From the IMG/VR virus record IMGVR_UViG_3300038427_000078: a stretch of 64,000 nt of DNA; one strand, 5' to 3'. The DNA comes from a virus. Shown here one piece after another: positions 3,772-23,779 of this stretch (position 1 is the stretch's first letter; each line of letters begins with the position of its first letter). A program made the position numbers and the translations under genes. The notes below the pieces were generated by a model. That model did no database searches. It had not been told where the DNA came from and worked only from the letters and a program-made list of their open reading frames with translations.

Positions 3772-4324
3772 ACTCTACTTTCTTGGCTCGGTTGCCATCG
3801 ACTGTGACGTACGGACGCTGTAGCGAGAGTATAGCCTCCGGGATCATTTTGTCAAGAGCAATCTCGTAGCTCTTGCCTAGCTTCTCCTTCTGCCTCTCGC
3901 TCAATGGGAGGTAGAGCAGCAACTCTTGCGGGTCAGTGACGGATGCGACGATCACACCGAGTCCCATCGACGCTCCCTCGCCTATGGTTTTCAGGGTTTC
4001 CTGAACGTCCTGATCCTCCTTGTTCCAGAAGATGTCACGGTTCACACGCAGCCCGTTGTAGACGAGCGATTCGATGGTTGACCCGGCGACGATGAGGTTG
4101 TCAGTCTTCTTCGCAGCCGCCACCTTTTCGGCGGTCATCCTGATCGCTGCGGCCTGTAGGTTCATGCCGTAGTTGGCGATGACCCCGTAGTCCTCGTTCG
4201 TTTCCTTGCTGAGCTTGTTGATGTACCCGTCCACGACGGCTGTCGTGCCGGGGAGTTTCTTGGCGAGCGCTTTCGCCAGGGCGGTCTTGCCTGCGCCTGG
4301 TGCGCCGAGTAGGACGAGCCTCAT
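3674..4324 (-). CDS. P-loop nucleotide kinase-like protein
   Basis: MRLVLLGAPGAGKT. Confidence 0.65.
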   Translation of the reverse strand: MRLVLLGAPGAGKTALAKALAKKLPGTTAVVDGYINKLSKETNEDYGVIANYGMNLQAAAIRMTAEKVAAAKKTDNLIVAGSTIESLVYNGLRVNRDIFWNKEDQDVQETLKTIGEGASMGLGVIVASVTDPQELLLYLPLSERQKEKLGKSYEIALDKMIPEAILSLQRPYVTVDGNRAKKVEYAFNIATEYEQFLSEREAEASAVANGQPTDPS

Positions 4325-4493
4325 GGTAGCGTCCACGCTCCGTTCTCGTCTACGTAGCCGAGGATGCGTAGCGCCTCGACCGATTCCTTCTCCAAGTTGC
4401 TGACGCGCTCTCCGTGTACTTGGTGGCGTACGACCTGAGCCTGTACCCACCTGACCAGGAGGTTCGCCAACTCGTTGACTTGATCCTCTGGCA

Positions 4494-10231: not shown

Positions 10232-10930
10232 ATGTCGGACAAACCGGACCGCAGTGCCAGGGAGATTGAGCTTACTGAGCAACTTCTCGCTGTGAAGATC
10301 GAGCGTGAGGAACGCGAGAGCCGCAAGGTTCAGGTCGAAACAGACCTCGCGGGCTACGAGGTACAGGAATACGAGCGCCAGGAGCGCAACGCGAAATCGA
10401 AGCACTCCGAGGCCCGCATCTACAACTTCGTGGATCAGGTCACACCGCAGTCCGTCAAGTCAGCCATCGGTACGCTGACCGAATGGACCCGCCGAGGCAG
10501 TGACCCGATCACACTGATCGTCAACACCCCAGGCGGCAACGTCTTCTCTGGATTGGCTCTCTTCGACGCCATCAAGTACATCCAGAAAGGTGACGAGGAA
10601 GCAGGGCTTCCTCCGATCACGATCAACACGGTGGCACGCGGCATGGCTGCCAGCATGGGAGGCATCATCTTCCAGGCCGGTAACGAGCGCCGCATCGAGG
10701 ACAACGCTTACATTCTCATCCATGAGATAAGCGACATCGCCATCGGCTCAACCTCCGAGCTTGAAGATGAGGTCAAGTTGACGAAGCGCTTGCAGAAAAA
10801 GCTCGTCAACATCCTCGCGGAGCGCTCAACGTTGAGCACGAAACAGATCGACGCCAACTGGAAACGCAAAGACTGGTGGCTGGACGCTGAGGAAGCGGTC
10901 GCCAAAGGCTTCGCGGACACAATCGTCTGA
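10232..10930 (+). CDS. clpP: ClpP-family protease
   Basis: NTPGGNV, AASMG (catalytic Ser), ILIHE, DWWLDAEEAVAKGFAD. Confidence 0.9.
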   Translation: MSDKPDRSAREIELTEQLLAVKIEREERESRKVQVETDLAGYEVQEYERQERNAKSKHSEARIYNFVDQVTPQSVKSAIGTLTEWTRRGSDPITLIVNTPGGNVFSGLALFDAIKYIQKGDEEAGLPPITINTVARGMAASMGGIIFQAGNERRIEDNAYILIHEISDIAIGSTSELEDEVKLTKRLQKKLVNILAERSTLSTKQIDANWKRKDWWLDAEEAVAKGFADTIV

Positions 10931-11537: not shown

Positions 11538-12533
11538 ATGGAGTATCAGAAGTATCTAAGGTCTGCTCACTGGCATGATCTTCAACGAGTGTTTTGGGAG
11601 AGGCATGAGCATCGCTGCGTAGTGTGTGGCGCAGAAGAGTCGCTGCATATCCATCACCGAACCTACGAGCATCTTGGGCATGAGGAGTGGGAGGATCTTA
11701 TCCCGTTGTGCGAAGATTGTCACACGCTAGTTCATCGGCTAGTGGACAATGGGCAAGCCTCTTTGTCTGACGCTCATCTCAAGTTGAATCCTTCGCTAGA
11801 GTGTCCTTCTCCGGAAGGACGAATCACTATTCCTCAGCGCCTTGGGCATGGACGCAAACATTTTGATGTTGGATCTGTGCCGTTGTACGTTGAGGGACAG
11901 GAGTACACCCCGGAGCAGTTGGACATGATGGCGACCTATTGGCTATGGACTCGAAGGGAGAACGGCCAGGGTGACATTCTGTTGAGTGCGAGTCAATGGA
12001 AGGGGCGCTACGAGCGTGAGATATACACAGCGGATGGGAAACCACCGGACCCCGCTAATACGACCGACCGCTTTGGCAACTACATCGATGGCATGTACTG
12101 GCGTACATGTCCTGGGGGTCGAAAGTGGGTGACCGAGGGAGTTCGTCGTACGATGGGATGTGGATTCTACTCGCATGCTATCGCAGAGGGCAAGAAGATT
12201 GTTCCTCCGAGAGAAGTCGAGGAGCAGGTCCAATGCCCCGGTCCTGGCTGTGATCGACCGGCTAAGACCGGAGGTCTTTGTCCCGCCCACTACCAGCAGC
12301 AGAGGCAGGGCCGACCTTTGGCCCCCATCCGTGTGCATGACGGACTCGGGTACGACCGCTCTCGAAAAAGGAAGAGCCTCAAGGAAAAAGAGAGGCGGCG
12401 CGTCGAGAAAGAGGAGCGCCAAGAACGTCCGAAGAAACCCAGGAAGAACGGGCGTCTAGTGGTCGTCGGGCGGGATGAGGATGGTCAGCCGATCACAATC
12501 CGAGAAGATTCGTCAGAGCATGCTACAATTTAG
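11538..12533 (+). CDS. HNH-domain multidomain protein
   Basis: CVVC...LHIHHRTY...LCEDCH; later GLCPAHY Zn motif. Confidence 0.75.
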   Translation: MEYQKYLRSAHWHDLQRVFWERHEHRCVVCGAEESLHIHHRTYEHLGHEEWEDLIPLCEDCHTLVHRLVDNGQASLSDAHLKLNPSLECPSPEGRITIPQRLGHGRKHFDVGSVPLYVEGQEYTPEQLDMMATYWLWTRRENGQGDILLSASQWKGRYEREIYTADGKPPDPANTTDRFGNYIDGMYWRTCPGGRKWVTEGVRRTMGCGFYSHAIAEGKKIVPPREVEEQVQCPGPGCDRPAKTGGLCPAHYQQQRQGRPLAPIRVHDGLGYDRSRKRKSLKEKERRRVEKEERQERPKKPRKNGRLVVVGRDEDGQPITIREDSSEHATI

Positions 12534-12737: not shown

Positions 12738-12812
12738 CTCCTCGTAGCTCAGTCAGGACAGAGCAGCCGCCTTCTAAGCGGTCGGTCGAGGGTTCGAATC
12801 CTTTCGGGGGGA
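12738..12812 (+). tRNA. tRNA-Arg(TCT)
   Basis: Cloverleaf, loop CTTCTAA. Confidence 0.9.
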
Positions 12813-13043
12813 CTTGACAGACGCAGATTCGTCTGCTACTCTGTCGAAACGGTAAGGTCCACCGTACATATCCAACGGACCGGCTGGTCAGCCGTAACCA
12901 TACGGCGAGTAGCTTGACGGACAGCGCCCAGGTGGGTGCGAGTCCAGCGCGAATAGCGGTTGAGCGATGTTGACACTTCTGCCTCTCAGAGTAAGCAGCG
13001 GGTACAGAGTTCAGGGTTCGCGCCCGGAGCCAGCCAAATCTTC

Positions 13044-13124
13044 GCCAAGGTATGCAAGTGGACAAAGCACGCTGTCTGTAAAACAGTTCTCTCGGGTTCG
13101 TAGGTTCGACTCCTACCCTTGGCA
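13044..13124 (+). tRNA. tRNA-Tyr(GTA)
   Basis: Cloverleaf, loop CTGTAAA. Confidence 0.9.
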
Positions 13125-13191
13125 TAAAATCGAGTCCCCTCGCGGAAAATTTTTGCGGGGAATGCTCAGGCGAGATTAGCATAATCTTCAC

Positions 13192-13224
13192 GCGCTGGTG
13201 ATGGAACGGTAGACTTGCTTTGTT
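13192..13224 (+). pseudogene. 5' half of split tRNA-Leu(TAG)
   Basis: GCGCTGG-TG-ATGGAACGGTAGAC; acceptor pairs with the 3' half at 13830-13879. Confidence 0.7.
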
Positions 13225-13262
13225 TTCCATTCGCATCTGTGCTATAAGTAATAGAAGCATAC

Positions 13263-13347
13263 GTCCGCATGCTGGAACTCGGTAGACGGGCACGGTTGAG
13301 AGCCGTGTGGCCGAAAGGTCGTGTGGGTTCGACTCCCACTGTGGACA
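13263..13347 (+). tRNA. tRNA-Leu(GAG)
   Basis: Cloverleaf with long variable arm. Confidence 0.9.
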
Positions 13348-13349
13348 TC

Positions 13350-13832
13350 ATGGCATTTATCCATCGCTACACATTGGAGATGTTGGAAGAGGCAGCGGAG
13401 CACAGCACTTCGGTCGCTGGTGTCTGTCGTTATCTCAACATCAACAACCCTGGCGGTAGTTCGCAGACGAACATCCGCAATCGTCTTCGTGACTTCGGCA
13501 TCGATACCTCACACTTCTTGGGTAAAGCTGCTCGCAAAGGAACACAAGCGAGCAATCGAAAGACGGCGGCAGAGATACTTGTACGCCTTCCTTCTGGTGC
13601 CTACCGACCAGAAGCAAAGAAACTTCGACGGGCCTTGATCGAACAGGGACGAGAGTATGTCTGTGAGGGTTGCGGCAACAAAGCGTGGTGGAAAGAAGGC
13701 CCATTGACACTTGAAGTAGATCACATCGACGGCGATTGGCACAACAACGAAGAGGACAACCTTCGTTTCTTGTGTCCTAATTGTCATAGCGTTTACACGT
13801 TGCCCGGTGTACCATGTGGTACGGCGGACTAG
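13350..13832 (+). CDS. HNH homing endonuclease
   Basis: CEGC...LEVDHIDGDWHNNEEDNLRFLCPNCH. Confidence 0.9.
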   Translation: MAFIHRYTLEMLEEAAEHSTSVAGVCRYLNINNPGGSSQTNIRNRLRDFGIDTSHFLGKAARKGTQASNRKTAAEILVRLPSGAYRPEAKKLRRALIEQGREYVCEGCGNKAWWKEGPLTLEVDHIDGDWHNNEEDNLRFLCPNCHSVYTLPGVPCGTAD

Positions 13833-13879
13833 GACGTGGTGCCCTTCGGGGCGTGTGGGTTCGAATCCCACTCAGCGCA
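13830..13879 (+). pseudogene. 3' half of split tRNA-Leu(TAG)
   Basis: TAG-GA-CGTGG, variable arm, T arm, TCAGCGC-A. Confidence 0.75.
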
Positions 13880-14152
13880 TAGGGCCGGTGGTCAGGCGAC
13901 GGGGTAAGCTCCTGTCGAATGCAGCCGAGTAGGTCGGGGATCCAGGCGCGTCTGGTGAAAGACCCGTATCCCTCTTGAGGGGTGCCCATCTCAAGCACTT
14001 GGTTGCGGAGCGGTCAAGTGGGTAGAGGGCGGAAGCCAGCCTTGAAAGGTTGAGCCGAAAGCTCTAGCTCCAATGTTTCAACTCCCGTGTAGTGGTGGAA
14101 GTCCACGTCGCGCAAGCGATTGTTACTGATGTGTGTCATGCACGGGAGCCAT

Positions 14153-14228
14153 GCCGCTGTGAAGGGAATTTGGCATACCTCTCACGCTTAGAACGTGAGG
14201 CTTGTGGGTTCGAGTCCCACTGGCGGCA
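14153..14228 (+). tRNA. tRNA-Leu(TAG), short variable loop
   Basis: Loop CTTAGAA; no long variable arm. Confidence 0.85.
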
Positions 14229-14246
14229 CTCAGTAGTGAAGTACCT

Positions 14247-14318
14247 GCCTCCGTATGGTTAGTGGTAGACCCTCCGACTTTTAATCGGGAAGCTGGGGTT
14301 CGATTCCCCACGGGGGTA
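14247..14318 (+). tRNA. tRNA-Lys(TTT)
   Basis: Loop CTTTTAA. Confidence 0.85.
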
Positions 14319-14469
14319 CTTTTGTGGTGATCGGCTGGGCTTGATCGGCCCGCTGTCCGATGGAAGGTGGTCGTGTGTCCACTCTTCGACCCGCGTCAAG
14401 TAGGGCCACAACGAAGGGCAAGATACCTCCGTACCGCAGCGCGCCGGGACGATAGGTAACACACAACAT

Positions 14470-14542
14470 GGGCCTGTAGCTCAAATGGGAGAGCGCCTGC
14501 CTTGCAAGCAGGAGGTTGAGGGTTCGATTCCCTCTAGGTCCA
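14470..14542 (+). tRNA. tRNA-Ala(TGC)
   Basis: Loop CTTGCAA, G3-U70. Confidence 0.92.
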
Positions 14543-14711
14543 CTGACTGTGGTGATCAGTCAAGCGGTAGCGGCCCCGGTAAAGGGTGCAGCCCGCACGA
14601 ACTCACCACCGCCTCTGCGTTCACGGGCAGAGCAAATGGAAGTGTCGTGAGCTTCCCGTACAATTCTCTCTCCCCGATTTCAGTGCGTGGGATGGAGGGC
14701 GGTCGAATCAA

Positions 14712-14785
14712 CAGGGAGTAGCGCAGTCTGGTAGCGCACTTGGTTTGGAACCAAGGGGTCGCGGGTTCGAATCCCGCCTTCCTGA
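14712..14785 (+). tRNA. tRNA-Pro(TGG)
   Basis: Loop TTTGGAA. Confidence 0.92.
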
Positions 14786-14826
14786 TAGCAGAGGGACGGC
14801 TGCTTCGTAAACCGTCCCGCACTTAC

Positions 14827-14922
14827 GCGCCTGTAGCTCAGTGGTCAACGGTTCTCTTCGGGGAGCCAAAGAGTTGCCGCCTTTCAAGCGGTAGGTCCGG
14901 GGTTCGATTCCCCGTAGGCGCA
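14827..14922 (+). tRNA. tRNA-Glu(TTC) with extra hairpin in D-loop
   Basis: Loop CTTTCAA; GGTTCTC-TTCG-GGGAGCC inside the D-loop. Confidence 0.8.
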
Positions 14923-14979
14923 TAACTCGTACCGCACCCCGGATTAGGGAGTACGAAGGCGGTGCAACGCCGCCACCAG

Positions 14980-15053
14980 CAGGGTATAGCGCAGTCTGGT
15001 AGCGCGCTCCCCTCGGACGGGAGAGGTCGTAGGTTCGAATCCTATTACCCTGA
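14980..15053 (+). tRNA. tRNA-Pro(CGG)
   Basis: Loop CTCGGAC. Confidence 0.9.
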
Positions 15054-15135
15054 TAGCGGCAGGCCATGGCCTGTCTCGAAGATCCTCGGTTGAACCGTGA
15101 AGCCATAGTTACCACGGGCCGGTACGGATCGAGTT

Positions 15136-15208
15136 GCCGGTCTAGCTCTAATGGTAGAGCGCTTCCGTGGTAAGGAAGAGGTTCCGAGTTCGAATCTCGG
15201 GATCGGCT
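15136..15208 (+). tRNA. tRNA-Thr(GGT)
   Basis: Loop GTGGTAA. Confidence 0.9.
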
Positions 15209-15470
15209 TAGCGGGGTAGACTCCATGCGCAGGGGTCGATGTCGAGGGAGTCATGACCCAAGGCACGCGGGTACCGACAGGCAAAGCGCCTGCTCGGTCC
15301 GTGCCGCACACTCATACCGTGCGCCGGGAAACCGCTAGACTGGCGGGTGTTACCGGATAAGGAGAGGCTAGTCACCGATCCGAAAAGGGATTGCTCGCAC
15401 GGTTTTCTAGATTGATCGGTCGGCCTCCGGTAGAGGAGTAGCGGACGGGTCGCCCCTCCACGGAGGGCTT

Positions 15471-15542
15471 GCCAGCAAAGCGGAAGTGGTGCCGCACCCG
15501 TTTCGTAAGCGGGGGAATCGGGTTCAATTCCCGATGCTGGCT
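15471..15542 (+). tRNA. tRNA-Thr(CGT)
   Basis: Loop TTCGTAA; A at position 8. Confidence 0.85.
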
Positions 15543-15693
15543 TTGAGGCCGTGACCTCCGGGTAAGAAGCGCGGGGAGCGTCAGTCTTAGGTTGTCCAGG
15601 GTCTAAATTTGCGCCTGGCTGAGCAGCGGAGACTACATAACCGGCTCGCCTCACTTTCGTACTTTTCTTTCGGGTACGACAAGGTAATGTGTA

Positions 15694-16101
15694 ATGGTAT
15701 GTGCTACCTGTAAAGAAGAGAAGGACTTGGACGAGTTCCATGCTGGTGCTCGCGTGTGTAAAGGCTGCAAGAAGGATGCCGATGCTCGCTCGTTTCAGAA
15801 GCATCGGGAGGCTCGTCTAGAAAAGCGCCGACAGGATCGCCTCGCAGCACGCGAATGGTTTGAGTCCTTGAAGGCAGGAAAGAAGTGTGCCGACTGTGAT
15901 CTGGATCATCCTCCGTGGAGGATGGATTGGGATCACCTTCCAGGCACAGAAAAGCTCTTTGAGATAGCCGATGTCAGCCACATGGCAACGGGAGAGAAGG
16001 GCAAGCGGAAGATACTGGACGAGATTGCCAAGTGCGAGCTTGTCTGTGCCAACTGTCATCGAGACAGAACGCACGACCGCCGACGGGGAGTGGCCCTGTA
16101 A
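15694..16101 (+). CDS. HNH endonuclease
   Basis: CADC...MDWDH...EIAKCELVCANCHR. Confidence 0.85.
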   Translation: MVCATCKEEKDLDEFHAGARVCKGCKKDADARSFQKHREARLEKRRQDRLAAREWFESLKAGKKCADCDLDHPPWRMDWDHLPGTEKLFEIADVSHMATGEKGKRKILDEIAKCELVCANCHRDRTHDRRRGVAL

Positions 16102-16126
16102 CTCGGTTCGACTCCGAGTGTTGGCT
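16102..16126 (+). pseudogene. Orphan tRNA-Thr 3' end
   Basis: CTCGG-TTCGACT-CCGAG-TGTTGGC-T. Confidence 0.7.
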
Positions 16127-16171
16127 TCCATGGCAGACGAGGAGGCAAGCCCTCTCTTGACTCTGCCGCCA

Positions 16172-16244
16172 GGGGGATTGGTGTAAACGGCAATCATGAT
16201 CGGCTCCAACCCGATTGATCAGGGTTCGAATCCTTGATCCCCCG
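16172..16244 (+). tRNA. tRNA-Trp(CCA)
   Basis: Loop CTCCAAC. Confidence 0.85.
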
Positions 16245-16342
16245 CTGTAGCAGACGTGCTACCCGGCCAGGGGATCTACCTGGTGCAGGCCAATGCTGCC
16301 AGCCCACGCCAGTCGAAACGCTGTCCTGTGGCTGGCCTACCT

Positions 16343-16379
16343 GGTGTCTTAGCTCAGATGGTTAGAGCGCTGCCCTGTC
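16343..16379 (+). pseudogene. 5' half of a tRNA-Asp ending at the GTC anticodon
   Basis: GGTGTCT-TAGCTCAGATGGTTAGAGC-G-CTGCC-CT-GTC, then unrelated sequence. Confidence 0.8.
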
Positions 16380-16429
16380 TAGTAGACCACTGGCCTTCAA
16401 GGGCGGTGGTATCGGCTAGGTAATAGCTG

Positions 16430-16846
16430 ATGGCAACTACCAAGGACAAGGGCGACCTCGCTGAGCTACGCATCGCATCAGACTTGATGCGGCAAGGATA
16501 CAAGGTAGCTATTCCCTTCGGTGACAATTGGGACTTCGACCTGATCCTGTACCGCGATGGGTTCGAGAGGGTCCAGGTCAAGTACGCTCAGTCAGACGGT
16601 GAGAAGGTCGAGGTCAAGGCGGTAAGCTACTCGACCAACAAAGGTCTGACCATCTCAGCGAAACAGTACACCGCTGCTGAGATTGACTGGCTTGCGGTGT
16701 ACGATGTGACCACCGACGAATGCTTCTACGTGCCAGCTAGCGAGCTTGGCGACGGGATGAGGATGGTGACGCTCAGGTATAAGCCTGCGCGTAACAACCA
16801 GACCAAGGGCATCCGGTGGACGAAGGACTATGGGTCCGTAGCGTAG
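16430..16846 (+). CDS. PD-(D/E)XK homing endonuclease, I-Ssp6803I-like
   Basis: TKDKGDLAE...PFGDNWDFDLI...RVQVK...YTAAEIDWLAVY. Confidence 0.85.
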   Translation: MATTKDKGDLAELRIASDLMRQGYKVAIPFGDNWDFDLILYRDGFERVQVKYAQSDGEKVEVKAVSYSTNKGLTISAKQYTAAEIDWLAVYDVTTDECFYVPASELGDGMRMVTLRYKPARNNQTKGIRWTKDYGSVA

Positions 16847-16905
16847 TGGTCTAACGCGCCTCCCTGTCAAGGAGGAGAACGGGGGTTCGAATCCCCTCGG
16901 TCCCG
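16832..16905 (+). tRNA. tRNA-Asp(GTC)
   Basis: Complete cloverleaf overlapping the nuclease 3' end. Confidence 0.9.
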
Positions 16906-17118
16906 CTCAACAACGAAGCGGAGAATCATGAAGCTCAGTAAGCTCAGTAAGCTAAGTCGTACATCCGAATTGCTCCCGTATCTTGAATCCGTTGAGCATT
17001 ACGCCAACGCTGCCGTATACCACGGCACCTTCGAGGGCGAACAGTTCACGTTGACCTTTACCTTCGGCCCTTGACTCGTCGCTTGACTTCTAGTCGTGGA
17101 CCGTGTAGACTACGGTCC

Positions 17119-17586
17119 ATGAACCTACTAAAGACACTTCCTGTCGTGCTGCTCGTAGCCCTTGCTGGATGCGGAGCAGTTACCAAAGCACCTGCCAAAG
17201 CACCTGCCCCGCACCCTAGTCTCCCCAAGGTGGTCAAGGTCACGGCGCAACCGACCACGACGACACCGGAACCCAGGCCCAGGCCCAAGCCTAGACCTGC
17301 GGTGGTAGTTCCTGTGCCTACTCCTACGCCTACATACCCGACATGCGATGGCGGACCCGTTGAATGCGGGAAGGCATCGGCAGCACCGACACGGGAAGAA
17401 AGTCTGCAACAGCACTACCGCGAAACCGGAGGCTGCGGTGGGGAAGGAGAGGCTGAATGTCCCGCCCACGGAGAAGGCAGCGGAGAAAATAGCGTCAACA
17501 GCACGGGTGAATCGCGTGCCTGTGCAGAAGAACGTAGTGAATACACAAGTGGCGAGAGGTCTAGTCTCCGCGTTGGCTGTCGATAA
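17119..17586 (+). CDS. Lipoprotein, Pro-rich with Cys-containing C-terminus
   Basis: MNLLKTLPVVLLVALAGC lipobox; leaderless promoter upstream. Confidence 0.75.
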   Translation: MNLLKTLPVVLLVALAGCGAVTKAPAKAPAPHPSLPKVVKVTAQPTTTTPEPRPRPKPRPAVVVPVPTPTPTYPTCDGGPVECGKASAAPTREESLQQHYRETGGCGGEGEAECPAHGEGSGENSVNSTGESRACAEERSEYTSGERSSLRVGCR

Positions 17587-17626
17587 GTCAAGGCGGAGGT
17601 CGCGGGTTCGAGTCCCGTCGTTGTCG
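17587..17626 (+). pseudogene. 3' half of a tRNA-Asp starting at GTC
   Basis: GTC-AA-GGCGG-AGGTC-GCGGG-TTCGAGT-CCCGT... Confidence 0.75.
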
Positions 17627-17639
17627 CTCGCAGTACAAC

Positions 17640-17711
17640 GCGCTGGTAGCTCATTGGCAGAGCAATCGGTTTACACCCGATGTGTATGGGGTTCGATTCC
17701 CTGGTGGCGCA
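17640..17711 (+). tRNA. tRNA-Val(TAC), weak acceptor and T stems
   Basis: Loop TTTACAC. Confidence 0.7.
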
Positions 17712-17758
17712 TAGATGTCAAGTAGCTCTGTAGGCGCAGGGGGGTGCGACATCTTTGA

Positions 17759-17831
17759 GGGCGATTAGCTCAGTTGGGAGAGCGCCGTCGCGACATGGCG
17801 GAAGTCACTGGTTCGAGTCCAGTATTGCCCA
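17759..17831 (+). tRNA. tRNA-Val(GAC)
   Basis: Loop GCGACAT (C33). Confidence 0.85.
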
Positions 17832-18020
17832 CTCTCCTGTCACCTAATTGGTGGCAGGGAATGCAAACCCACGACCAGCGTAAGAAAGGATGGTGATCCA
17901 GAAATCTACCTTGTAGACAGATGGTCGCCGTCCACAGTTGGTCGGCACTAAGTCGTTGGGGGAGGGTGAGGGCCGCTGGCTCTTAGCCCTCCCTCCGAGG
18001 TTCTTCGGAGCCTCACCCAT

Positions 18021-18417
18021 GGGCCTTTCCCGGTAATCGATTGGGTAGGTTCGGCAGTATGTCATGCAGCGGTCGTCACACCTACCTGACAAAAGCCATA
18101 ACTGGCAACGCAACAGACACGCTCGCAATCCCCGCATCTCTCTTCGAGGTTCGGGCTAGCGACGTACTCGCTGTAGCCTAAGAAGCTACAAGCCGGGACC
18201 AGCCGAGTATCCTGGGAACAGAAACCTCGGAGGGCAGTGAGCGCCATGCCCTTGACGTGCAGAGTACCGTTGTAGTTACACCGCAAGGTGTTGGTAGCAC
18301 CCCGCGCGTTCCCGGACGTATAACCGGGTGGTGGAGGCGGGCCATGCCTGTCCCAAAGCTGCTAGAAGTGACGCCTGTACGAGACTCAAGACGGCAGTTC
18401 GACTCTGCCAAGGTCCA
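18021..18417 (+). ncRNA. ssrA: tmRNA; tag (A)GNATDTLAIPASLFEVRASDVLAVA at 18104-18181
   Basis: Acceptor GGGCCTT/AAGGTCC-A with G3-U70; T arm GGCAG-TTCGACT-CTGCC; ATAACT-GGC resume context. Confidence 0.9.
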
Positions 18418-18451
18418 CTAAAACAAGGTCCATCCGTGCTAGAATAGATGG

Positions 18452-18889
18452 ATGGGCAGAGAGCAAAGACGAGCAAAGCAATTGGGTATGCCGCATGGCA
18501 CAGCCATGCACCGCTTGCGTAAACGAGTGATGTTTTCACTAGCTCAGGAGTTGCACTTGGATCAGTGCATCGTGTGTAAGAGGATGATCGAAGATGCTGA
18601 CGACCTTAGCATCGAGCACATCCAGCCGTGGGAGGGCCGAGACACGTCCCTGTTTTGGGACATCACTAACATCGCTTTCTCTCATCGCTGGTGCAACCAA
18701 CCTCATACGCGACCGGGCAAGCCTCCGGTTCATGACCTCAAGCCCGACATGTGGTGGTGCTCCCACTGCGAACAAGAACTTCCGCTTGATCGATTCGGCC
18801 TCAAGACAGTGACAAGTGGAGCTAAACGACCACGAAACTACTGCAACAAATGCCGTACCGAACGTAAAGCAATGGGCCTCTCGGCCTAG
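18452..18889 (+). CDS. HNH endonuclease
   Basis: CIVC...SIEHIQPW...NIAFSHRWCN plus C-terminal Zn motif. Confidence 0.8.
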   Translation: MGREQRRAKQLGMPHGTAMHRLRKRVMFSLAQELHLDQCIVCKRMIEDADDLSIEHIQPWEGRDTSLFWDITNIAFSHRWCNQPHTRPGKPPVHDLKPDMWWCSHCEQELPLDRFGLKTVTSGAKRPRNYCNKCRTERKAMGLSA

Positions 18890-19056
18890 TCCACTTGACA
18901 AGCCGGAGAAGACGTGCTAAGCTCCCGGCATGGAACAAGACAAAAACGGAAACCTGATCTGCAACGTCTGTGGACAGGATTGGGCAAGCCAACACACCAT
19001 CGGGGCAACTGCCTCCAACCTCCCAGGAAGCCAAGTCAACCAAAGGAAGGCAAGTG

Positions 19057-19359
19057 ATGGGCTACTACATCGAGACACCCCTCCCGCTCGCGAAGGCACT
19101 TCAACTCGAAGAGCTTCACGGTGCGGAGCCGTACTCGGGTACGTTCGAGGACGTACCGGAGGGCAAGGTCGTAGTCGCAGTGGTACAGAACGGTCTGTTC
19201 GACGCCGCTGGCATCTGCTACGACGAGAACGAGTTCAAGGCATTCACCGCTGACCCAAGCGACACCAGGCCGAAAGACCTGTTGACGCTGGACAAGGACA
19301 CCGCCCTACGGCTGTGCCCGCACGCAGCGGAGGTACTTGGAGAGGACGTGGCTACCTGA
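19057..19359 (+). CDS. Hypothetical protein
   Basis: SD plus ORF. Confidence 0.6.
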   Translation: MGYYIETPLPLAKALQLEELHGAEPYSGTFEDVPEGKVVVAVVQNGLFDAAGICYDENEFKAFTADPSDTRPKDLLTLDKDTALRLCPHAAEVLGEDVAT

Positions 19360-19565
19360 TGCCCGTCCTTTTCTTCATCATCGCAGGCATCATCCTGATC
19401 GCCAACTCGGGCTGGTTCCACGGAGCAGACATCGTTGGCATCGTCCTGCTCGTCTTTGGCGGGCTTGGACTTGTCCTCTGGCTCGTCGCTGCGAAATTCG
19501 CACGGAGCATCATCAAAGAGGTCAAAGGACCAGGGACACCCCGGCATCCCCGGAGGTTCCGCTAA
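19359..19565 (+). CDS. Small two-TM membrane protein
   Basis: Two hydrophobic segments. Confidence 0.6.
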   Translation: MPVLFFIIAGIILIANSGWFHGADIVGIVLLVFGGLGLVLWLVAAKFARSIIKEVKGPGTPRHPRRFR

Positions 19566-19572
19566 GTTGTTC

Positions 19573-19645
19573 GCCCTTGTAGCTCAGAGGATAGAGCATC
19601 GGTTTCCTAAACCGTGTGTCGCGGGTTCGATTCCCTCCGGTGCCA
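19573..19645 (+). pseudogene. tRNA-Arg(CCT) with non-pairing 3' acceptor strand
   Basis: Loop TTCCTAA intact; GCCCTTG pairs poorly with CGGTGCC. Confidence 0.65.
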
Positions 19646-19661
19646 TGGTATACTGTTGGGT

Positions 19662-20003
19662 ATGAGTGATCAAGACCTAACAGAGCAGCAAGTAGTGGCT
19701 GCGGAGGCCGGTGTCGGAGACAGCATACAGGCCATCGCGGACCGCGCAGTCAAGGCCGTCGAGGTACTGGACTTGAGCGAGGGCGATGTTCTCGTAGTCA
19801 AGCTCGGCATCGATGACATGGGTGACGGACTCCCACCGTGGATTCCGGGACCAGCGGAGCTAGAGCAGGTGTCAGATGCCTTGACCGCGACAGTGCCAGA
19901 GGGCGTACGGGTGCTAGTTCACCACCTGGGAATCAACTTCCAGATCGTACGCGGCCTCGACACCAGTAACCCGGTCGTAGTCGAATCGCTGCCAACAGAG
20001 TAA
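19662..20003 (+). CDS. Stand-alone paralog of an internal portal segment
   Basis: KLGIDDMGDGLPPWIPGPAELEQV vs portal KLGIMDMGDGLPPWLPGPEELESV. Confidence 0.8.
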   Translation: MSDQDLTEQQVVAAEAGVGDSIQAIADRAVKAVEVLDLSEGDVLVVKLGIDDMGDGLPPWIPGPAELEQVSDALTATVPEGVRVLVHHLGINFQIVRGLDTSNPVVVESLPTE

Positions 20004-20006
20004 CAC

Positions 20007-20081
20007 GCGGGAATAGCTCAGCCAGGTTAGAGCACTTCTCTGATAAGGAAGGGGTCAGAGGTTCAAATCCTCTTTTCCGCA
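20007..20081 (+). tRNA. tRNA-Ile(GAT)
   Basis: Loop CTGATAA. Confidence 0.88.
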
Positions 20082-20166
20082 TCGCAGGAAAATCGGTCCT
20101 GAAAAATTAGGGTCGGCGCTCAGAAAAATTTTGCGCCAACTTCTCAGGCGAGATTAGCCTAATTAC

Positions 20167-20241
20167 GCCCAAGTGACGGGAATTGGCATACCTGGCAAGC
20201 TCAAACCTTGTCGTTTGTGGGTTCGACTCCCACTTTGGGCA
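20167..20241 (+). tRNA. tRNA-Leu(CAA), short variable loop
   Basis: Loop CTCAAAC; no long variable arm. Confidence 0.85.
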
Positions 20242-20273
20242 CTTTTTGTCGAACCTTCTGACACGTAATATAC

Positions 20274-20606
20274 GTGGCATACAAGGATCCTCAGAAGCAG
20301 AAAGAAGCACAGCATCGGTCATATCTGCGTAACAAAGAGATAATCCTCAGGCGCAGTTCTGATCGCATCAAAGAGCTTCGACGCAAAGTGCGAGAGTACA
20401 AGGAGGAGCGTGGTTGTAGCGCGTGCGGGTACAACAAATACGGTGGGGCTATCGATGCTCATCACCCAAACGGCAAGGATAACCAAGAACAGTGCATTGC
20501 CCGTTTGTGCAAACGGGCCTTTCCGTGGGAGACAATCCTTGCGGAGCTTGAGAAGTGCATTCTTCTCTGTTCCAACTGTCATCGCGAGCACCATCGCGGT
20601 GAGTAG
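20274..20606 (+). CDS. HNH endonuclease
   Basis: CSAC...IDAHH...ELEKCILLCSNCHR. Confidence 0.85.
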   Translation: MAYKDPQKQKEAQHRSYLRNKEIILRRSSDRIKELRRKVREYKEERGCSACGYNKYGGAIDAHHPNGKDNQEQCIARLCKRAFPWETILAELEKCILLCSNCHREHHRGE

Positions 20607-20784
20607 CATAACGCGCTATACTGGAAATATGGGACCAGACAAATGTGGCGCAGAAGTCGGACTTTTGGCAAGATGCCAAAGACCGGCGAATCACGACGGA
20701 GAGCACTCAGGGCCGATTTTCGTCCCTCAGTGGATTACCTATTTGGGCGAGGGTGACGAGATTCCTCGCAGTCAGTACCAATCG

Positions 20785-20856
20785 TGCGGAGTGGAGCAAC
20801 GGTAGCTCGCAAGGCCCATAACCTTGAGGTAGGAAGTTCGACTCTTCCCTCCGCTA
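20785..20856 (+). tRNA. tRNA-Met(CAT), initiator-like
   Basis: 1-72 mismatch; loop CCCATAA. Confidence 0.85.
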
Positions 20857-20868
20857 TAGCAGTACAAT

Positions 20869-20940
20869 TCCGGGTTCGTCTAATCGGCAGGATGTCTGGT
20901 TCTGAGCCAGATGGTCAGGGTTCGAATCCTTGACCCGGAG
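20869..20940 (+). tRNA. tRNA-Gln(CTG)
   Basis: Loop TTCTGAG. Confidence 0.9.
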
Positions 20941-21002
20941 CTTTGGCAGTAGAAGGCGAACAGCGCTTAGAGCGGGTTCGTGGGATCCCGCGCTGTCAAC
21001 AT

Positions 21003-21073
21003 TGGGGGTTCGTTCAACGGCAGGACAGCGGGCCTTGAACCCGCGAATCGGGGTTCGAATCCCTGACCCCCAG
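21003..21073 (+). tRNA. tRNA-Gln(TTG)
   Basis: Loop CCTTGAA. Confidence 0.88.
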
Positions 21074-21155
21074 CTAGCAAGGCAAGGAGCCGGTAGGCGT
21101 GTGCTACCGGACCAGAACGAGGCGTCACTGCACGCCTACCTTGCCGCAATCTTTC

Positions 21156-21239
21156 GCCTCTCTGGTTGGAATGGTAGACACAGCGGGCCTAAACCCCGCC
21201 GATCTTCGGATCGTCCGAGTTCGACTCTCGGGAGAGGCA
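21156..21239 (+). tRNA. tRNA-Leu(TAA)
   Basis: Loop CCTAAAC; long variable arm. Confidence 0.88.
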
Positions 21240-21241
21240 TC

Positions 21242-21316
21242 GCGTCGGAAGCTCAAGTGCGAGCGCCGCCCATTTGGGGGCGGAGGTCGAGGGCGATTAG
21301 CTCCCCTCTCGGCGCA
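21242..21316 (+). ncRNA. tRNA-like RNA with atypical loops
   Basis: All four stems pair; anticodon loop CATTTGG; 10-nt T-loop. Confidence 0.65.
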
Positions 21317-21320
21317 ACAT

Positions 21321-21394
21321 GGTGGTCGTCATCTAATGGACTAGGATTCGAGGTTGTGAACCTCGCCATGCGGGTTCGATTCCCGTCGATCACC
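21321..21394 (+). tRNA. tRNA-His(GTG)
   Basis: G-1:C73; loop TTGTGAA. Confidence 0.9.
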
Positions 21395-21406
21395 CTGGCA
21401 GCACAA

Positions 21407-21481
21407 GCGCCACTAGCTCAGTCTGGTTAGAGCAACTGTCTTATCAACAGCGTGTCCGGGGTTCAAATCCTCGGTGGCGCA
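21407..21481 (+). tRNA. tRNA-Ile(TAT)
   Basis: Loop CTTATCA. Confidence 0.8.
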
Positions 21482-21487
21482 CTTCAT

Positions 21488-21561
21488 GGCCCGTGGGTCT
21501 TATGGCAAGGATTCCGCGTTCTCAGCGCGTGAGATGATGGGTTCGAATCCCATACGGGCTA
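21488..21561 (+). tRNA. tRNA-Glu(CTC)
   Basis: Loop TTCTCAG. Confidence 0.85.
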
Positions 21562-21636
21562 CTCTGTAGGTACCATTCGAATGGCTCTGCCTGCGGAACG
21601 CTTGACTTCATCGCACCCGTGCGATATGATGTCGCT

Positions 21637-22290
21637 ATGTCGAGAGCAAGAGACTGGACCCACCCAATCACCGGCGAGCTACACTGGTTCGACGTACACG
21701 GCATGGCTGGGGTCCGGGAACTCGAAGTTCTCGCAGACGCCGAAGACATCGACTTGGACGACCTGTTCGACGCGAACCTCTCTTCTAAGGAGGTTCTGTT
21801 CCGGCTCAACAAGCTCAGTGAGCTAATCCCGGAGGCGGGCCTCAACAAGCTCAAGAAACGTCAGACACAGGGCGAGCCTGAGACTTGCCGCATCTGCCCG
21901 CTACTCGGTCGGGAGTGCGAAGGTCGAATGACCAAACATCACTTCGTGCCGCGTTGGATCATGTTGGAACTGGCAGACTACGAGGTCTATGCACCGCGTA
22001 GGCTCTGCACAGTCCCGGCGTGCGCCGGGAGCCACCGTTGGCTCCACATGCGGACCGAGGAGGGATCGAAATCCATCGCTCCTTACCTCGACAAGAATGA
22101 GAAGGCACTAGCGCACCATCTCATCGGGACACTCCGTCAGGAGCGCCCCAGGATCTACGCCCTCCTCGCGGGCGGGGACAAGAACAGCTACGAGTGGCAA
22201 CTTGTTCAGGATTGGCGGCGAGGACTGTTTGATGTCAGGGGGGAAGGGAAAGATCCCTTCCCTCGCTGGCAGCTACGAAACTCTCTGTAG
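21637..22290 (+). CDS. Hypothetical protein with HNH-like Cys/His cluster
   Basis: CRIC...TKHHFVP...VPACAGSHRWLH. Confidence 0.6.
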   Translation: MSRARDWTHPITGELHWFDVHGMAGVRELEVLADAEDIDLDDLFDANLSSKEVLFRLNKLSELIPEAGLNKLKKRQTQGEPETCRICPLLGRECEGRMTKHHFVPRWIMLELADYEVYAPRRLCTVPACAGSHRWLHMRTEEGSKSIAPYLDKNEKALAHHLIGTLRQERPRIYALLAGGDKNSYEWQLVQDWRRGLFDVRGEGKDPFPRWQLRNSL

Positions 22291-22353
22291 CTCAGTGGAT
22301 AGAGCGTCCGGTTGCGATCCGGGAGGTCGGCGGTTCGAGTCCGTCCAGGGAGG
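22281..22353 (+). tRNA. tRNA-Arg(GCG)
   Basis: Loop TTGCGAT. Confidence 0.85.
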
Positions 22354-22381
22354 TACGTTAGAACCCTGCTAAGGTGTAGAT

Positions 22382-22561
22382 ATGCCTTACGCAGATAGAG
22401 AGAAACAGGCGGCGTATCAACGCGATTGGTACCGACGCCACAAAGAGCAACATATCAACCGTATTCGTAACGAACGTCGTAAGAGGCGTGAAGTGGTCAA
22501 CGAATACAAGCTCTCAAGAGGGTGTAACCGATCGCGGGTTCGATTCCCGCATAGTGCTTAG
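22382..22561 (+). pseudogene. Truncated HNH gene fused to a tRNA 3' fragment
   Basis: MPYADREKQAAYQRDWY...YKLSRGC resembles the N-termini of 20274 and 23901; runs into GCGGG-TTCGATT-CCCGC. Confidence 0.7.
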
Positions 22562-22568
22562 ATCAAAC

Positions 22569-23155
22569 TTCGTATCAGGCGGTTGCTGCGCTTGAAAGAC
22601 AGCGTAGAGGAAGTTCGGGGCATGCTGGCAGGGGAAACCTTGTCATCGGCTCAACTACACCGAGTGACACCGGCCCAAAGGAGGTACGCCCTCGTTGGTG
22701 TTCCGGCGCATGCAACTCCAAGTAGAGAACCCTACGGCGAAAGCTATGGGCATATCGGGTTGGAGGCTTAGATGGATGATCGCCACCAGTTACGACTCAG
22801 AGGAGAGACATGAACTACTGTGAAGCGATGGCCTACGTCGCGGGGCTGTTGGAGGGCGAGGGATGCTTCGATTTCGTAGCTCCCGGCCATCCAAGGATCC
22901 GCATGGAGACAACAGATGAAGATGTGGCATACTGGCTTCAACACTTGGTTGAAGGTGGGACAATCACTAATCGTCAGGGCAAACGCAGTAATCACAGCGA
23001 TTCGTTTGTGTGGCAAACGAGCAGGGCTGATGTGGTCAAGAAGGTCTTGACGGCAATCTATCCTTGGACAAGTGCTCGCAGGCGAGTAAAGATTGATGAA
23101 CTCATGTCTGCTCTCTGAGCCGTAGTTGGTACAGAACCCCGGCTATCGATACGAA
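22569..23155 (+). ncRNA. rnpB: RNase P RNA (minimal) interrupted in P19 by an ORF
   Basis: P1 TTCGTATC/GATACGAA; P2 GGCGGTT/GATCGCC; GAGGAAGTTCGGGGC (22607) pairs with ACAGAACCCCGGCT (23131) as P4 with bulged U; AGATGGAT. Confidence 0.88.
22810..23118 (+). CDS. Single-motif LAGLIDADG homing endonuclease
   Basis: AYVAGLLEGEGCF; SD AGGAG. Confidence 0.85.
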   Translation: MNYCEAMAYVAGLLEGEGCFDFVAPGHPRIRMETTDEDVAYWLQHLVEGGTITNRQGKRSNHSDSFVWQTSRADVVKKVLTAIYPWTSARRRVKIDELMSAL

Positions 23156-23196
23156 TATGCCCCTCGGCTCTGTTCAGAACGGCTTGGGGGCACCAA

Positions 23197-23270
23197 GCCT
23201 GTGATGCAGAAATGGTGCTGCGCTCGCCTTGTAAGCGAGAATAGACTCGGTTCGATTCCGAGCATAGGCT
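23197..23270 (+). tRNA. tRNA-Thr(TGT)
   Basis: Loop CTTGTAA. Confidence 0.85.
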
Positions 23271-23434
23271 CTGACTGCGCTCTTGCAAGCACCGGGAACC
23301 GGCGTGCGGCAGAGCGGCGCGCTGGTCACCCGTGGCTAGTCCTCATTTGCTCAACGCACCCCGGATTAGGGATTGGGCAGGCTAGTCTAGTGTGAGTACC
23401 CACTGATCGCGATGAGCGTGAGGGGAAATCCAAT

Positions 23435-23505
23435 GCGGATGTGGCGTAATGGTAACGTATTTGCCTTCCAAGCAAAGGTTGCGGGTTCGACTCCCGTCTT
23501 CCGCT
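23435..23505 (+). tRNA. tRNA-Gly(TCC)
   Basis: Loop CTTCCAA; U73. Confidence 0.9.
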
Positions 23506-23571
23506 TCAACCCACGACACAAAGGAGGTACCCCATGCGGTTAGGCACTGTCTAATCGAAAGGAGGTACTAA

Positions 23572-23742
23572 GTGAACGGCAACCTCGCAGCCAAGGCTGC
23601 GAAGCTCATGCAGAAGAACGGGAACCGCGACAAAGGAGGCGGATCCCACAAGTACGGACGCAACCGCAACAAGTGCGCCCGCTACCGCGCCCGCGTGGGG
23701 AAGCCCCGTGGTCCTGGTGTCGATGGAAACAAGAAACACTAG
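23572..23742 (+). CDS. Small basic Gly/Lys/Arg-rich protein (56 aa)
   Basis: SD AAAGGAGGT; MNGNLAAKAAKLMQKNGNRDKGGGSHKYGRNRNKCARYRARVGKPRG... Confidence 0.65.
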   Translation: MNGNLAAKAAKLMQKNGNRDKGGGSHKYGRNRNKCARYRARVGKPRGPGVDGNKKH

Positions 23743-23779
23743 AGGGTGGCCGACCGGCCCACTGGAACGGTCGGATTAG

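What the first reader, a model, noticed from the sequence alone, without database searches (positions are those of the whole stretch)
13192..13879. tRNA-Leu(UAG) split near the anticodon by a cassette of another tRNA-Leu plus an HNH gene
Seen: the 5' half acceptor GCGCTGG pairs fully with TCAGCGC of the 3' half ~600 nt downstream. Between them lie a -10-like element, an intact tRNA-Leu(GAG) and an HNH ORF whose TAG stop is the old anticodon. The insert does not end in G and has no intron core. The rebuilt anticodon stem is weak, so the exact left junction is uncertain. Inference: intronless homing into a tRNA gene, with a tRNA carried as cargo.
Basis: partly seen in the sequence, partly recalled or inferred. 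Interest (0 to 1): 0.72.

Follow-up and report, generated by a model that had tools for sequence, protein, structure and literature searches.

The report
Homing cassette splits phage tRNA-Leu gene
A selfish DNA-cutting-enzyme gene sits in the middle of a phage's leucine tRNA gene with no intron around it and carries a working copy of the same tRNA, while related phages hold either this broken-plus-spare version or the intact gene at exactly the same spot.

Summary
Window 13192-13222 and 13830-13879 are the two ends of one type-II tRNA-Leu gene. Between them lie 607 nt holding an intact tRNA-Leu(GAG) (13263-13347) and an intact HNH endonuclease gene (13350-13832).

The layout is not a one-off. 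Four further diverged phage lineages from metagenomes have it (HNH 64-75% identical). Three related phages carry an uninterrupted tRNA-Leu at the same locus, one of them from the same sample as a split relative with about 90% identical flanks.

All uninterrupted alleles read GAG, and a separate Leu(UAG) gene lies downstream in every genome with sequence there. So the split gene is the Leu(GAG) gene, and the cargo replaces the same isoacceptor.

No intron model matches, and in one lineage only 10 nt separate the 5' piece from the cargo tRNA. In the pieces, acceptor, D and T stems still pair (74 of 75 pairs), but the rebuilt anticodon stem does not (17 of 25).

Best reading: intronless homing of a nuclease-plus-rescue-tRNA cassette. 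Cleavage and transfer are inferred, not shown. The scan had already noted the same design at tRNA-Asp in this genome. It is a new variant of the known link between homing endonucleases and phage tRNA arrays.

The parts
13147..13191 (+). Conserved promoter-like block upstream of the tRNA-Leu locus. It is resident DNA, not part of the insert.
   Evidence: The same block precedes both split alleles (window, L005, L006, L012) and uninterrupted alleles (L002, L009). It is absent in L007. The sigma-70 scan does not call it at its thresholds, so its promoter function is inferred.
13192..13222 (+). 5' piece of the resident tRNA-Leu(GAG) gene: acceptor 5' strand, D arm, and a degraded 5' strand of the anticodon stem.
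   Evidence: 93% identical to nt 1-28 of the uninterrupted L002 allele, E 4e-6. Parsed.
13223..13262 (+). Variable spacer at the left end of the insert.
   Evidence: Length and content differ among lineages: 10 nt in L012, and about 200 nt with a 62-aa ORF in L006.
13263..13347 (+). Intact cargo tRNA-Leu(GAG), type II, discriminator A.
   Evidence: ARAGORN; Rfam RF00005 39.9 bits. Present directly upstream of the HNH gene in all five lineages, with compensatory changes in the acceptor and T stems.
13350..13832 (+). HNH endonuclease gene, 160 aa, a distant homologue of phage T5 F-TflIV. A GTG at 13341 gives the 163-aa form held in databases.
   Evidence: Pfam PF01844. Homologues 64-75% identical sit in the same position in L005, L006, L007 and L012. 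tblastn to T5 hegA/TflIV: 34.5% over 71% of the query, E 8e-9.
13830..13879 (+). 3' piece of the resident tRNA-Leu gene: 3' part of the anticodon loop, 3' strand of the anticodon stem, variable arm, T arm, acceptor 3' strand and discriminator.
   Evidence: The last 28 nt are 100% identical to the L002 allele, E 6e-11. Parsed.

Best explanation
A mobile cassette has replaced the anticodon arm of the phage's resident tRNA-Leu(GAG) gene. The cassette is an intact tRNA-Leu(GAG) followed directly by a free-standing HNH homing endonuclease gene. The resident gene is left as two dead pieces.

The cargo tRNA has a different anticodon-stem sequence and supplies the lost decoding function, so the insertion costs the phage little although nothing is spliced.

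Inferred steps:
- In mixed infections the HNH enzyme cuts the uninterrupted allele of related phages, probably in or near the anticodon arm.
- Repair copies the cassette from the donor, using the tRNA pieces and their flanks as homology.
- Transcription comes from the resident promoter-like block upstream of the 5' piece, and tRNA processing releases the cargo.
- The outer parts of the pieces still look like a good tRNA because recombination with working alleles in the phage population keeps renewing them. The junction-proximal anticodon stem always travels with the cassette and has decayed.
For: Shown:
1. The two pieces are the best matches in the window to the two ends of an uninterrupted allele.
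2. The same order (5' piece, cargo Leu(GAG), HNH, 3' piece) occurs after Arg(UCU)-Tyr in five lineages: the window (= L004), L005, L006 (= L008, L010, L011), L007 and L012 (= L013). Their HNH proteins are 64-75% identical.
3. Uninterrupted alleles occupy the same locus in L002, L009 and L024. A homologue of this HNH is absent from the complete 170-kb L002 record and from the 52-kb L024 fragment, and is found in the L008 control.
4. L024 (empty) and L006/L008 (filled) come from one sample and are about 90% identical in their flanks. They differ by 14 nt of anticodon arm against 751 nt of insert.
5. In the five split alleles the acceptor, D and T stems pair at 74 of 75 positions, but the anticodon stem at only 17 of 25. 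It pairs 5 of 5 in L002 and L009. Fisher p = 4e-5.
6. L007's pieces carry a different acceptor pair that is still complementary. The T-stem variants in the pieces mirror those in uninterrupted alleles. Both point to more than one invaded allele.
7. The window's pieces are about 90% identical to the L002 allele, while orthologous working tRNAs of the two phages have a median near 69%.
8. No intron family matches at E up to 10. ARAGORN's intron mode finds nothing. L012 has only 10 nt between the 5' piece and the cargo.
9. The enzyme family lives in tRNA arrays of cultured phages and is homologous to T5 F-TflIV. A T4 endonuclease in a tRNA cluster is a proven homing enzyme that recognises tRNA-gene sequence (PMC2330249).
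10. L009 is a chimera: resident-type acceptor and T arm with cargo-type interior (89% over 57 nt, E 7e-14). This is as expected if a break was repaired from the cargo copy.
Against: - No cleavage, transfer or expression data exist. The target site is unknown and could lie away from the insertion point, as for some free-standing endonucleases.
- The distal parts of the pieces are as conserved among lineages (84% and 72%) as working tRNAs (67-83%), although the HNH DNA has diverged to 66%. 'Renewal by recombination' explains this but is an inference. Co-conversion tracts in known homing systems are often longer than these pieces.
- Three to four split alleles share T at position 34, where uninterrupted alleles have G. 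So the exact junction and the history of that base are unresolved.
- Empty sites could in principle be secondary losses.
Confidence: 0.7

Rival explanations
1. The pieces are not relics. The transcript is processed so that the two halves are joined, or held together by the acceptor helix, into a working tRNA. That would be a protein-dependent or otherwise unknown kind of intron or split tRNA in a phage.
For: Acceptor complementarity is 7 of 7 in all five lineages, including a fully covarying pair in L007. The T, D and variable stems are kept with compensatory changes. The distal pieces are as conserved as working tRNAs. An RNA ligase gene lies next to the array in L005 and L006. An earlier scan note reports a phage RNase P RNA in this genome.
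Against: The rebuilt anticodon stem pairs at only 17 of 25 positions, and 2 of 5 in L012. No single junction gives a good tRNA. No intron model matches, and L012 has no room for a ribozyme core. Insert content is not conserved: extra ORFs in L005 and L006. No homologue of the L005 RNA ligase was found in this 64-kb window. Bacteria have no known tRNA splicing endonuclease (established knowledge).
Confidence: 0.07
2. The pieces are kept for an RNA or DNA role other than decoding. Examples: a tRNA-like closure or 3' hairpins that direct processing and stabilise the HNH mRNA, or a leader needed for expression of the cargo tRNA from the resident promoter.
For: Conservation of the distal pieces. 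The promoter-like block is conserved upstream of the 5' piece, so the piece is probably transcribed as a leader. The variable-arm and T-arm hairpins follow the ORF directly.
Against: Nothing requires acceptor complementarity between the pieces for a hairpin or leader role. The long-range acceptor helix is predicted only when the RNA is cut exactly at the tRNA ends; with 60-nt flanks it survives in the window alone. L007 lacks the conserved upstream block.
Confidence: 0.1
3. A single old rearrangement, not an active element. An illegitimate recombination among neighbouring tRNA-Leu genes trapped a Leu(GAG)-HNH pair inside another Leu gene. The layout was then inherited vertically and lost in some lineages, and the HNH enzyme has some other role.
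For: A more distant phage (L028) has intact Leu(GAG) - HNH - Leu(UAG) with no pieces. The tRNA-HNH pair therefore exists as an ordinary intergenic arrangement from which a rearrangement could start. Three to four split alleles share the junction motif with T at position 34.
Against: The empty alleles L002 and L024 have perfect anticodon arms that are unlike both the junction remnants and the cargo, so they are not simple deletions. Empty and filled sites occur in about 90% identical phages from one sample. L007's pieces come from a different allele. The pieces are closer to a foreign intact allele than the genome average.
Confidence: 0.12

Closest known systems
[quoted passage not shown]
   Same: Homologous enzyme: tblastn to T5 TflIV gives 34.5% identity over 71% of the query, E 8e-9. 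It is free-standing, with no intron, and sits among phage tRNA genes.
   Different: By the annotation of related cultured phages, family members sit between intact tRNA genes. Here the gene lies inside a tRNA gene and is coupled to a replacement copy. Identity is low, so target specificity cannot be transferred.
Phage T4 SegB, a GIY-YIG homing endonuclease in the T4 tRNA cluster (PMC2330249; PMC13096335)
   Same: A free-standing homing endonuclease that recognises tRNA-gene sequence and drives inheritance of its own gene together with neighbouring tRNA genes. It shows that tRNA genes can be both target and hitch-hiking cargo.
   Different: A different nuclease fold. SegB lies between tRNA genes and cuts at their 3' ends. 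It does not split a gene and does not carry a like-for-like replacement of its target.
Group I introns in bacterial tRNA anticodon loops, for example tRNA-Leu(UAA), and the tRNA-fMet intron with I-Ssp6803I (PMC3984707)
   Same: Insertion in the anticodon arm of a tRNA gene, and association with a homing endonuclease.
   Different: There is no ribozyme: no Rfam match, no conserved core and no room for one in L012. Function is rescued at the DNA level by a second gene copy, not by RNA splicing.
Synthetic 'home-and-rescue' and 'cleave-and-rescue' gene drives (from my own knowledge; not checked in the library)
   Same: The design logic matches: a nuclease that destroys the resident copy of a useful gene, linked to a recoded copy of that gene that is presumed resistant.
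   Different: Those drives are engineered, Cas9-based and in animals. Here resistance of the cargo to the enzyme is only inferred from its different anticodon-stem sequence.
Integrating elements that insert into tRNA genes and carry a duplicate of the displaced end (established knowledge)
   Same: A tRNA gene is the target, a partial tRNA copy is left at the border, and function is preserved by sequence the element brings.
   Different: Those elements use integrases and rebuild the same gene across the junction. Here there is no integrase, both ends are left as pieces and a whole separate tRNA is carried.

Membership tests
HNH endonuclease (Pfam PF01844) | Match to the HNH profile above the curated cutoff | tested here: met
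   27.2 bits against a cutoff of 21.4, residues 105-147.
HNH endonuclease (Pfam PF01844) | Catalytic His and Asn residues and two Cys pairs of the zinc site are present | tested here: met
   C105, C108, H125, D127, N132/N133, N137, C142, C145 and H146 are invariant in the seven-sequence alignment A2.
Free-standing homing endonuclease gene (SegB / F-Tfl type) | The ORF is not inside a self-splicing intron or an intein | tested here: met
   No intron family at E up to 10. It is a separate ORF with its own start next to the cargo tRNA. L012 has only 10 nt between the 5' piece and the cargo.
Free-standing homing endonuclease gene (SegB / F-Tfl type) | Presence/absence polymorphism at one homologous site among close relatives | tested here: met
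   Filled in five lineages and empty in L002, L009 and L024. L024 against L006 shows clean boundaries in about 90% identical flanks.
Free-standing homing endonuclease gene (SegB / F-Tfl type) | The enzyme cleaves the allele that lacks it, at or near the insertion site | not testable with these tools
   Needs a nuclease assay on the L002 or L024 type allele.
Free-standing homing endonuclease gene (SegB / F-Tfl type) | Biased, nuclease-dependent inheritance in mixed infection | not testable with these tools
   The phages are uncultured. A plasmid-based donor-recipient assay would be needed.
T5 F-TflIV-like HNH family | Sequence homology to T5 hegA/TflIV | tested here: met
   tblastn 34.5% identity, residues 36-148, E 8e-9. 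This is distant, so membership is at the family level only.
Group I intron in a tRNA anticodon loop | Conserved ribozyme core (Rfam Intron_gpI) | tested here: not met
   No match at E up to 10 in 13150-13900. Insert content between the pieces is not conserved among lineages.
Group I intron in a tRNA anticodon loop | Exons that join into a tRNA with an intact anticodon stem | tested here: not met
   17 of 25 pairs across five lineages, against 5 of 5 in L002 and L009. No junction gives a high-scoring tRNA.
Split or intron-bearing tRNA genes of archaeal type (bulge-helix-bulge) | Conserved helix with two 3-nt bulges at the junctions, and a splicing endonuclease | tested here: inconclusive
   No conserved pairing around the junctions was seen in the five lineages. 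The motif was not searched with a dedicated model. tmRNA and bacterial-type tRNAs point to a bacterial host.
tRNA (the cargo gene, Rfam RF00005) | Cloverleaf above the gathering score, with Leu-type long variable arm and discriminator A | tested here: met
   39.9 bits against 29. ARAGORN Leu(GAG), 85 nt, score 117. Compensatory changes among the five cargo copies.

The most novel reading that the evidence does not exclude
The two tRNA pieces are kept by selection. The long transcript closes through the acceptor helix into a tRNA-like body whose anticodon arm is replaced by the cargo tRNA and the nuclease mRNA. This body is recognised by tRNA-processing enzymes or rejoined by a phage or host ligase. 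That would be a new, ribozyme-free way of carrying a gene inside a bacterial-type tRNA.
Probability: 0.07. Interest if true: 0.9.

Novelty: new variant of a known kind. Interest (0 to 1): 0.62.

Why it matters
Homing endonucleases are thought to survive in useful genes only inside introns or inteins that splice themselves out, or else to stay between genes. This locus shows a third solution: break the gene and bring a spare.

The spare here is the same isoacceptor with a different anticodon-stem sequence. That is the logic of engineered 'home-and-rescue' gene drives, found in nature.

The design recurs in five diverged phage lineages. That suggests a general force shaping phage tRNA arrays: turnover of tRNA alleles, chimeric tRNAs such as L009, and orphan tRNA pieces that annotation pipelines miss.

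The locus also gives a directly testable enzyme-target pair, because natural cut-candidate alleles (L002, L024 type) and presumed immune alleles (cargo, L009 type) are both in hand.

Tried and rejected
- ARAGORN with introns up to 1000 nt allowed finds only the cargo tRNA.
- Joining the halves at 1001 junction combinations gives many borderline tRNA calls. The best score is 110.6, with assorted anticodons, so there is no preferred junction.
- Rfam at E up to 1 and up to 10 gives no intron or other family. A weak tRNA-Sec hit at 13801-13879 (21 bits) rests on the variable and T arms only and has three acceptor mismatches.
- Megablast and blastn against cultured phages find no close relative, only scattered tRNA matches.
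- Thermodynamic folding predicts the long-range acceptor helix when the RNA is cut at the tRNA ends. With 60-nt flanks it is lost in four of five lineages, so this says nothing either way.
- The sigma-70 consensus scan finds no promoter in 13100-13950.
- MAFFT aligned window 13816-13829 to a D arm (11 of 16 positions). I considered a relic of a second tRNA 5' half inside the end of the ORF but could not support it.
- A tblastn for the RNA ligase seen next to the array in L005 and L006 finds none in this window.
- Pope et al. 2014 on cluster M tRNA arrays could not be opened. I know it only through PMC5966550.
- Four literature searches found no description of a nuclease-plus-replacement-tRNA cassette inside a tRNA gene. 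This is absence in the held library, not proof of novelty.

Full report
**What is in the window**

The window is part of a large uncultured phage, about 57% G+C, with no close relative among cultured phages. From 12738 to 23851 it carries 28 tRNA genes and a tmRNA on the + strand. Ribonucleotide reductase, ClpP and another HNH gene lie just upstream.

After tRNA-Arg(UCU) and tRNA-Tyr come four features:
- a 31-nt stretch (13192-13222) that looks like the first third of a type-II tRNA-Leu;
- an intact 85-nt tRNA-Leu(GAG) (13263-13347);
- an ORF of 160 codons (13350-13832) with a Pfam HNH domain;
- a 50-nt stretch (13830-13879), overlapping the ORF's stop codon, that looks like the last part of a tRNA-Leu from the anticodon loop onward.

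The acceptor strands of the two stretches pair at 7 of 7 positions.

**Is it more than chance?**

Pattern searches with the two stretches led to a related 170-kb phage contig, L002. Its tRNA array has the same gene order (Arg, Tyr, Leu..., Val, Val, tmRNA), and it holds an uninterrupted 83-nt tRNA-Leu at this position.

I BLASTed that gene against the whole window. Its two best hits are the two stretches: nt 56-83 at 100% (E 6e-11) and nt 1-28 at 93% (E 4e-6).

**Relatives**

The HNH protein has homologues of 64-75% identity on metagenome contigs. Every one whose DNA could be read has the same layout after Arg(UCU)-Tyr: 5' piece, intact Leu(GAG), HNH, 3' piece, then a tRNA(UAG). The independent lineages are:
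- the window (= L004);
- L005;
- L006 (= L008, L010, L011);
- L007;
- L012 (= L013).

The insert varies in content:
- L012 has 10 nt between the 5' piece and the cargo.
- L006 has a 62-codon ORF there.
- L005 has a 120-codon ORF between the HNH gene and the 3' piece.
- In the window, the HNH ORF runs about ten codons past the point where its relatives stop, until it meets the TAG at the anticodon position.

Uninterrupted alleles at the same locus occur in L002, L009 and L024. The conserved promoter-like block seen upstream of most split alleles was read directly upstream of L002 and L009. For L024 the matching stretch aligns at 90% with L006.

The complete L002 record and the L024 fragment contain no homologue of this HNH. 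The same search finds it in the L008 control.

L024 and L008 come from one sample. L024 and L006 are 90-92% identical upstream of the junction and 85-100% identical over the first 200 nt downstream. They differ by 14 nt of anticodon arm in L024 against 751 nt in L006. That is a clean empty-site versus filled-site pair.

**Which tRNA was split?**

All three uninterrupted alleles read GAG. A separate tRNA(UAG) gene lies further downstream in the window and in L002, L005, L006, L007, L012 and L024. The L009 contig is too short to show this.

By position and by sequence, the split gene is therefore the Leu(GAG) gene. Uninterrupted alleles have G at position 34.
- L005 and L012 share the T. In L005 the TAG ends a different ORF.
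- L006 reads CAG after what looks like a 2-nt deletion.
- L007 is degenerate at this point.

I cannot tell whether the T is a substitution or the last base of the insert. Either way, the cargo is a like-for-like replacement of the gene it interrupts.

**Not an intron**

No Rfam family other than tRNA matches at E up to 10. ARAGORN's intron mode finds nothing. Nothing between the pieces is conserved except the cargo tRNA and the HNH gene, and L012 leaves no room for a ribozyme core.

Joining the halves gives no preferred junction.

**State of the pieces**

I parsed all five split alleles.
- The acceptor (7 of 7), the T stem (5 of 5) and the D stem (3 of 3, but 2 of 3 in the window) are kept. 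That is 74 of 75 pairs.
- The anticodon stem pairs at only 17 of 25 positions, seven of them wobble.
- It pairs 5 of 5 with Watson-Crick pairs in L002 and L009.
- Fisher p = 4e-5.

Decay is therefore confined to the junction.

Away from the junction the pieces are well kept:
- Mean pairwise identity among lineages is 84% for the 5' piece and 72% for the 3' piece.
- Working tRNAs of the same arrays score 67% (Arg), 67% (Tyr) and 83% (cargo).
- The HNH DNA scores 66%, and the junction-proximal DNA 46-50%.
- The window's pieces are about 90% identical to the L002 allele, while orthologous working tRNAs of these two phages have a median near 69%.
- L007's pieces have a different, still complementary acceptor pair.
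- The two T-stem variants in the pieces are the same two seen in uninterrupted alleles.

The simplest reading is that the outer parts of the pieces keep being drawn from working alleles in the phage population. This could happen by repeated invasion or by recombination. The junction-proximal part travels with the cassette. This is an inference, and it is the weakest link, because co-conversion in known systems often extends further than 30-50 nt.

**L009**

This uninterrupted allele has a resident-type acceptor and T arm. Its D arm, anticodon arm and variable arm are of cargo type: 89% identity over 57 nt to the window's cargo, E 7e-14.

It is what one would expect if a broken resident gene were repaired from the nearby cargo copy, giving an allele without the nuclease gene but with the cargo's anticodon arm. 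It could equally be the ancestral source of the cargo.

**The enzyme family**

All catalytic and zinc-binding residues are invariant. The protein is a distant homologue of T5 F-TflIV.

In cultured phages, family members sit inside tRNA arrays, directly after one tRNA and abutting or overlapping the next. Examples are Gordonia phages Norvs and GodonK and Escherichia phage mistaenkt.

A more distant, low-G+C phage (L028) has intact Leu(GAG) - HNH - Leu(UAG). A bacterial contig (L031) has the HNH gene just upstream of a Leu(UAG) gene. The link between this clade and tRNA-Leu genes is therefore older than the split layout.

T4 SegB shows experimentally that an endonuclease in a tRNA cluster can recognise tRNA-gene sequence and drive inheritance of itself and its neighbouring tRNA genes (PMC2330249; see also PMC13096335). 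HNH genes are the commonest protein genes in mycobacterial tRNA arrays and have been linked to tRNA repertoire diversity (PMC5966550).

**Mechanism proposed**

Shown: the insertion, its boundaries, its recurrence, the existence of empty sites, an intact nuclease and cargo, and decay limited to the anticodon stem.

Inferred:
- The enzyme cuts the resident-type allele.
- The cargo's different anticodon-stem sequence makes it immune.
- Double-strand-break repair copies the cassette.
- The resident promoter-like block drives the cargo and the nuclease.

**Rivals**

I considered three rivals: a functional split tRNA or a new kind of intron, another RNA-level role for the pieces, and a single old rearrangement with losses. 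The evidence for and against each is set out in the Rival explanations section. None is excluded outright.

**Novelty**

Free-standing homing endonucleases in phage tRNA clusters are known. I found no paper describing one that sits inside a tRNA gene without an intron and carries a replacement of that same tRNA.

I checked only that the 5' piece, the nuclease ORF overlapping an intact tRNA-Asp, and a downstream T-arm relic are there.

I rate this a new variant of a known kind, of moderate to good interest.

Noticed in passing
window 14827-14922: A tRNA with anticodon loop reading UUC (Glu) carries a 25-nt insertion in its D loop. Rfam scores it 57.5 bits with the insertion looped out. ARAGORN cannot name it.
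   Followed up: no
window 14156-14229; also L012 3233-3307 and L007 4312-4385: The tRNA with the Leu anticodon UAG is only 74-75 nt and lacks the long variable arm. Its positional counterparts in L002, L005, L006 and L024 are normal 84-85-nt type-II tRNA-Leu genes.
   Followed up: partly
L007 3809-4385: A second case in one relative. The 5' part of a type-II tRNA-Leu(UAG), up to the anticodon, is followed by a second HNH gene (3874-4347, Pfam HNH_3). The end of that gene overlaps the 74-nt tRNA(UAG).
   Followed up: partly
window 16343-17626: A parallel design at tRNA-Asp, also noted earlier by the scan. There is a 5' tRNA-Asp piece up to the GTC anticodon (about 16343-16378), a 138-aa ORF (16430-16846) whose end overlaps an intact tRNA-Asp (16832-16906), and a T-arm relic near 17595-17620.
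   Followed up: partly
L009 400-1080 and L012 1798-2160: The neighbouring tRNA-Tyr locus is also invaded in relatives. L009 has an ORF (516-915) between tRNA-Tyr-like sequences, with duplicated T-arm and acceptor ends. L012 has a small HNH-like ORF whose end runs into a T-arm and acceptor relic.
   Followed up: no
window 13880-14155: A 276-nt stretch between the 3' piece and the tRNA(UAG) has no ORF of 60 codons or more and no tRNA call. L012 has a spacer of similar length in the same place. I did not test it for structure.
   Followed up: no
window 11538-12533: Another HNH-domain ORF (331 aa, Pfam PF01844 at the N terminus) lies directly upstream of the tRNA array. It is unrelated in length to the one studied here.
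   Followed up: no
L005 1232-1921 and L006 1085-1807: An RNA ligase gene (PF09414) lies immediately upstream of the tRNA array in these relatives. The window has ClpP (10232-10930) in the corresponding region, and tblastn finds no homologue of this ligase in the 64 kb.
   Followed up: partly
L028 1400-2047 and L031 1501-2113: More distant homologues of the HNH protein (52-55% identity) also sit next to tRNA-Leu genes. One is in a low-G+C phage, between intact Leu(GAG) and Leu(UAG). The other is on a bacterial contig, just upstream of Leu(UAG) and next to cox1 and groES-like genes.
   Followed up: partly
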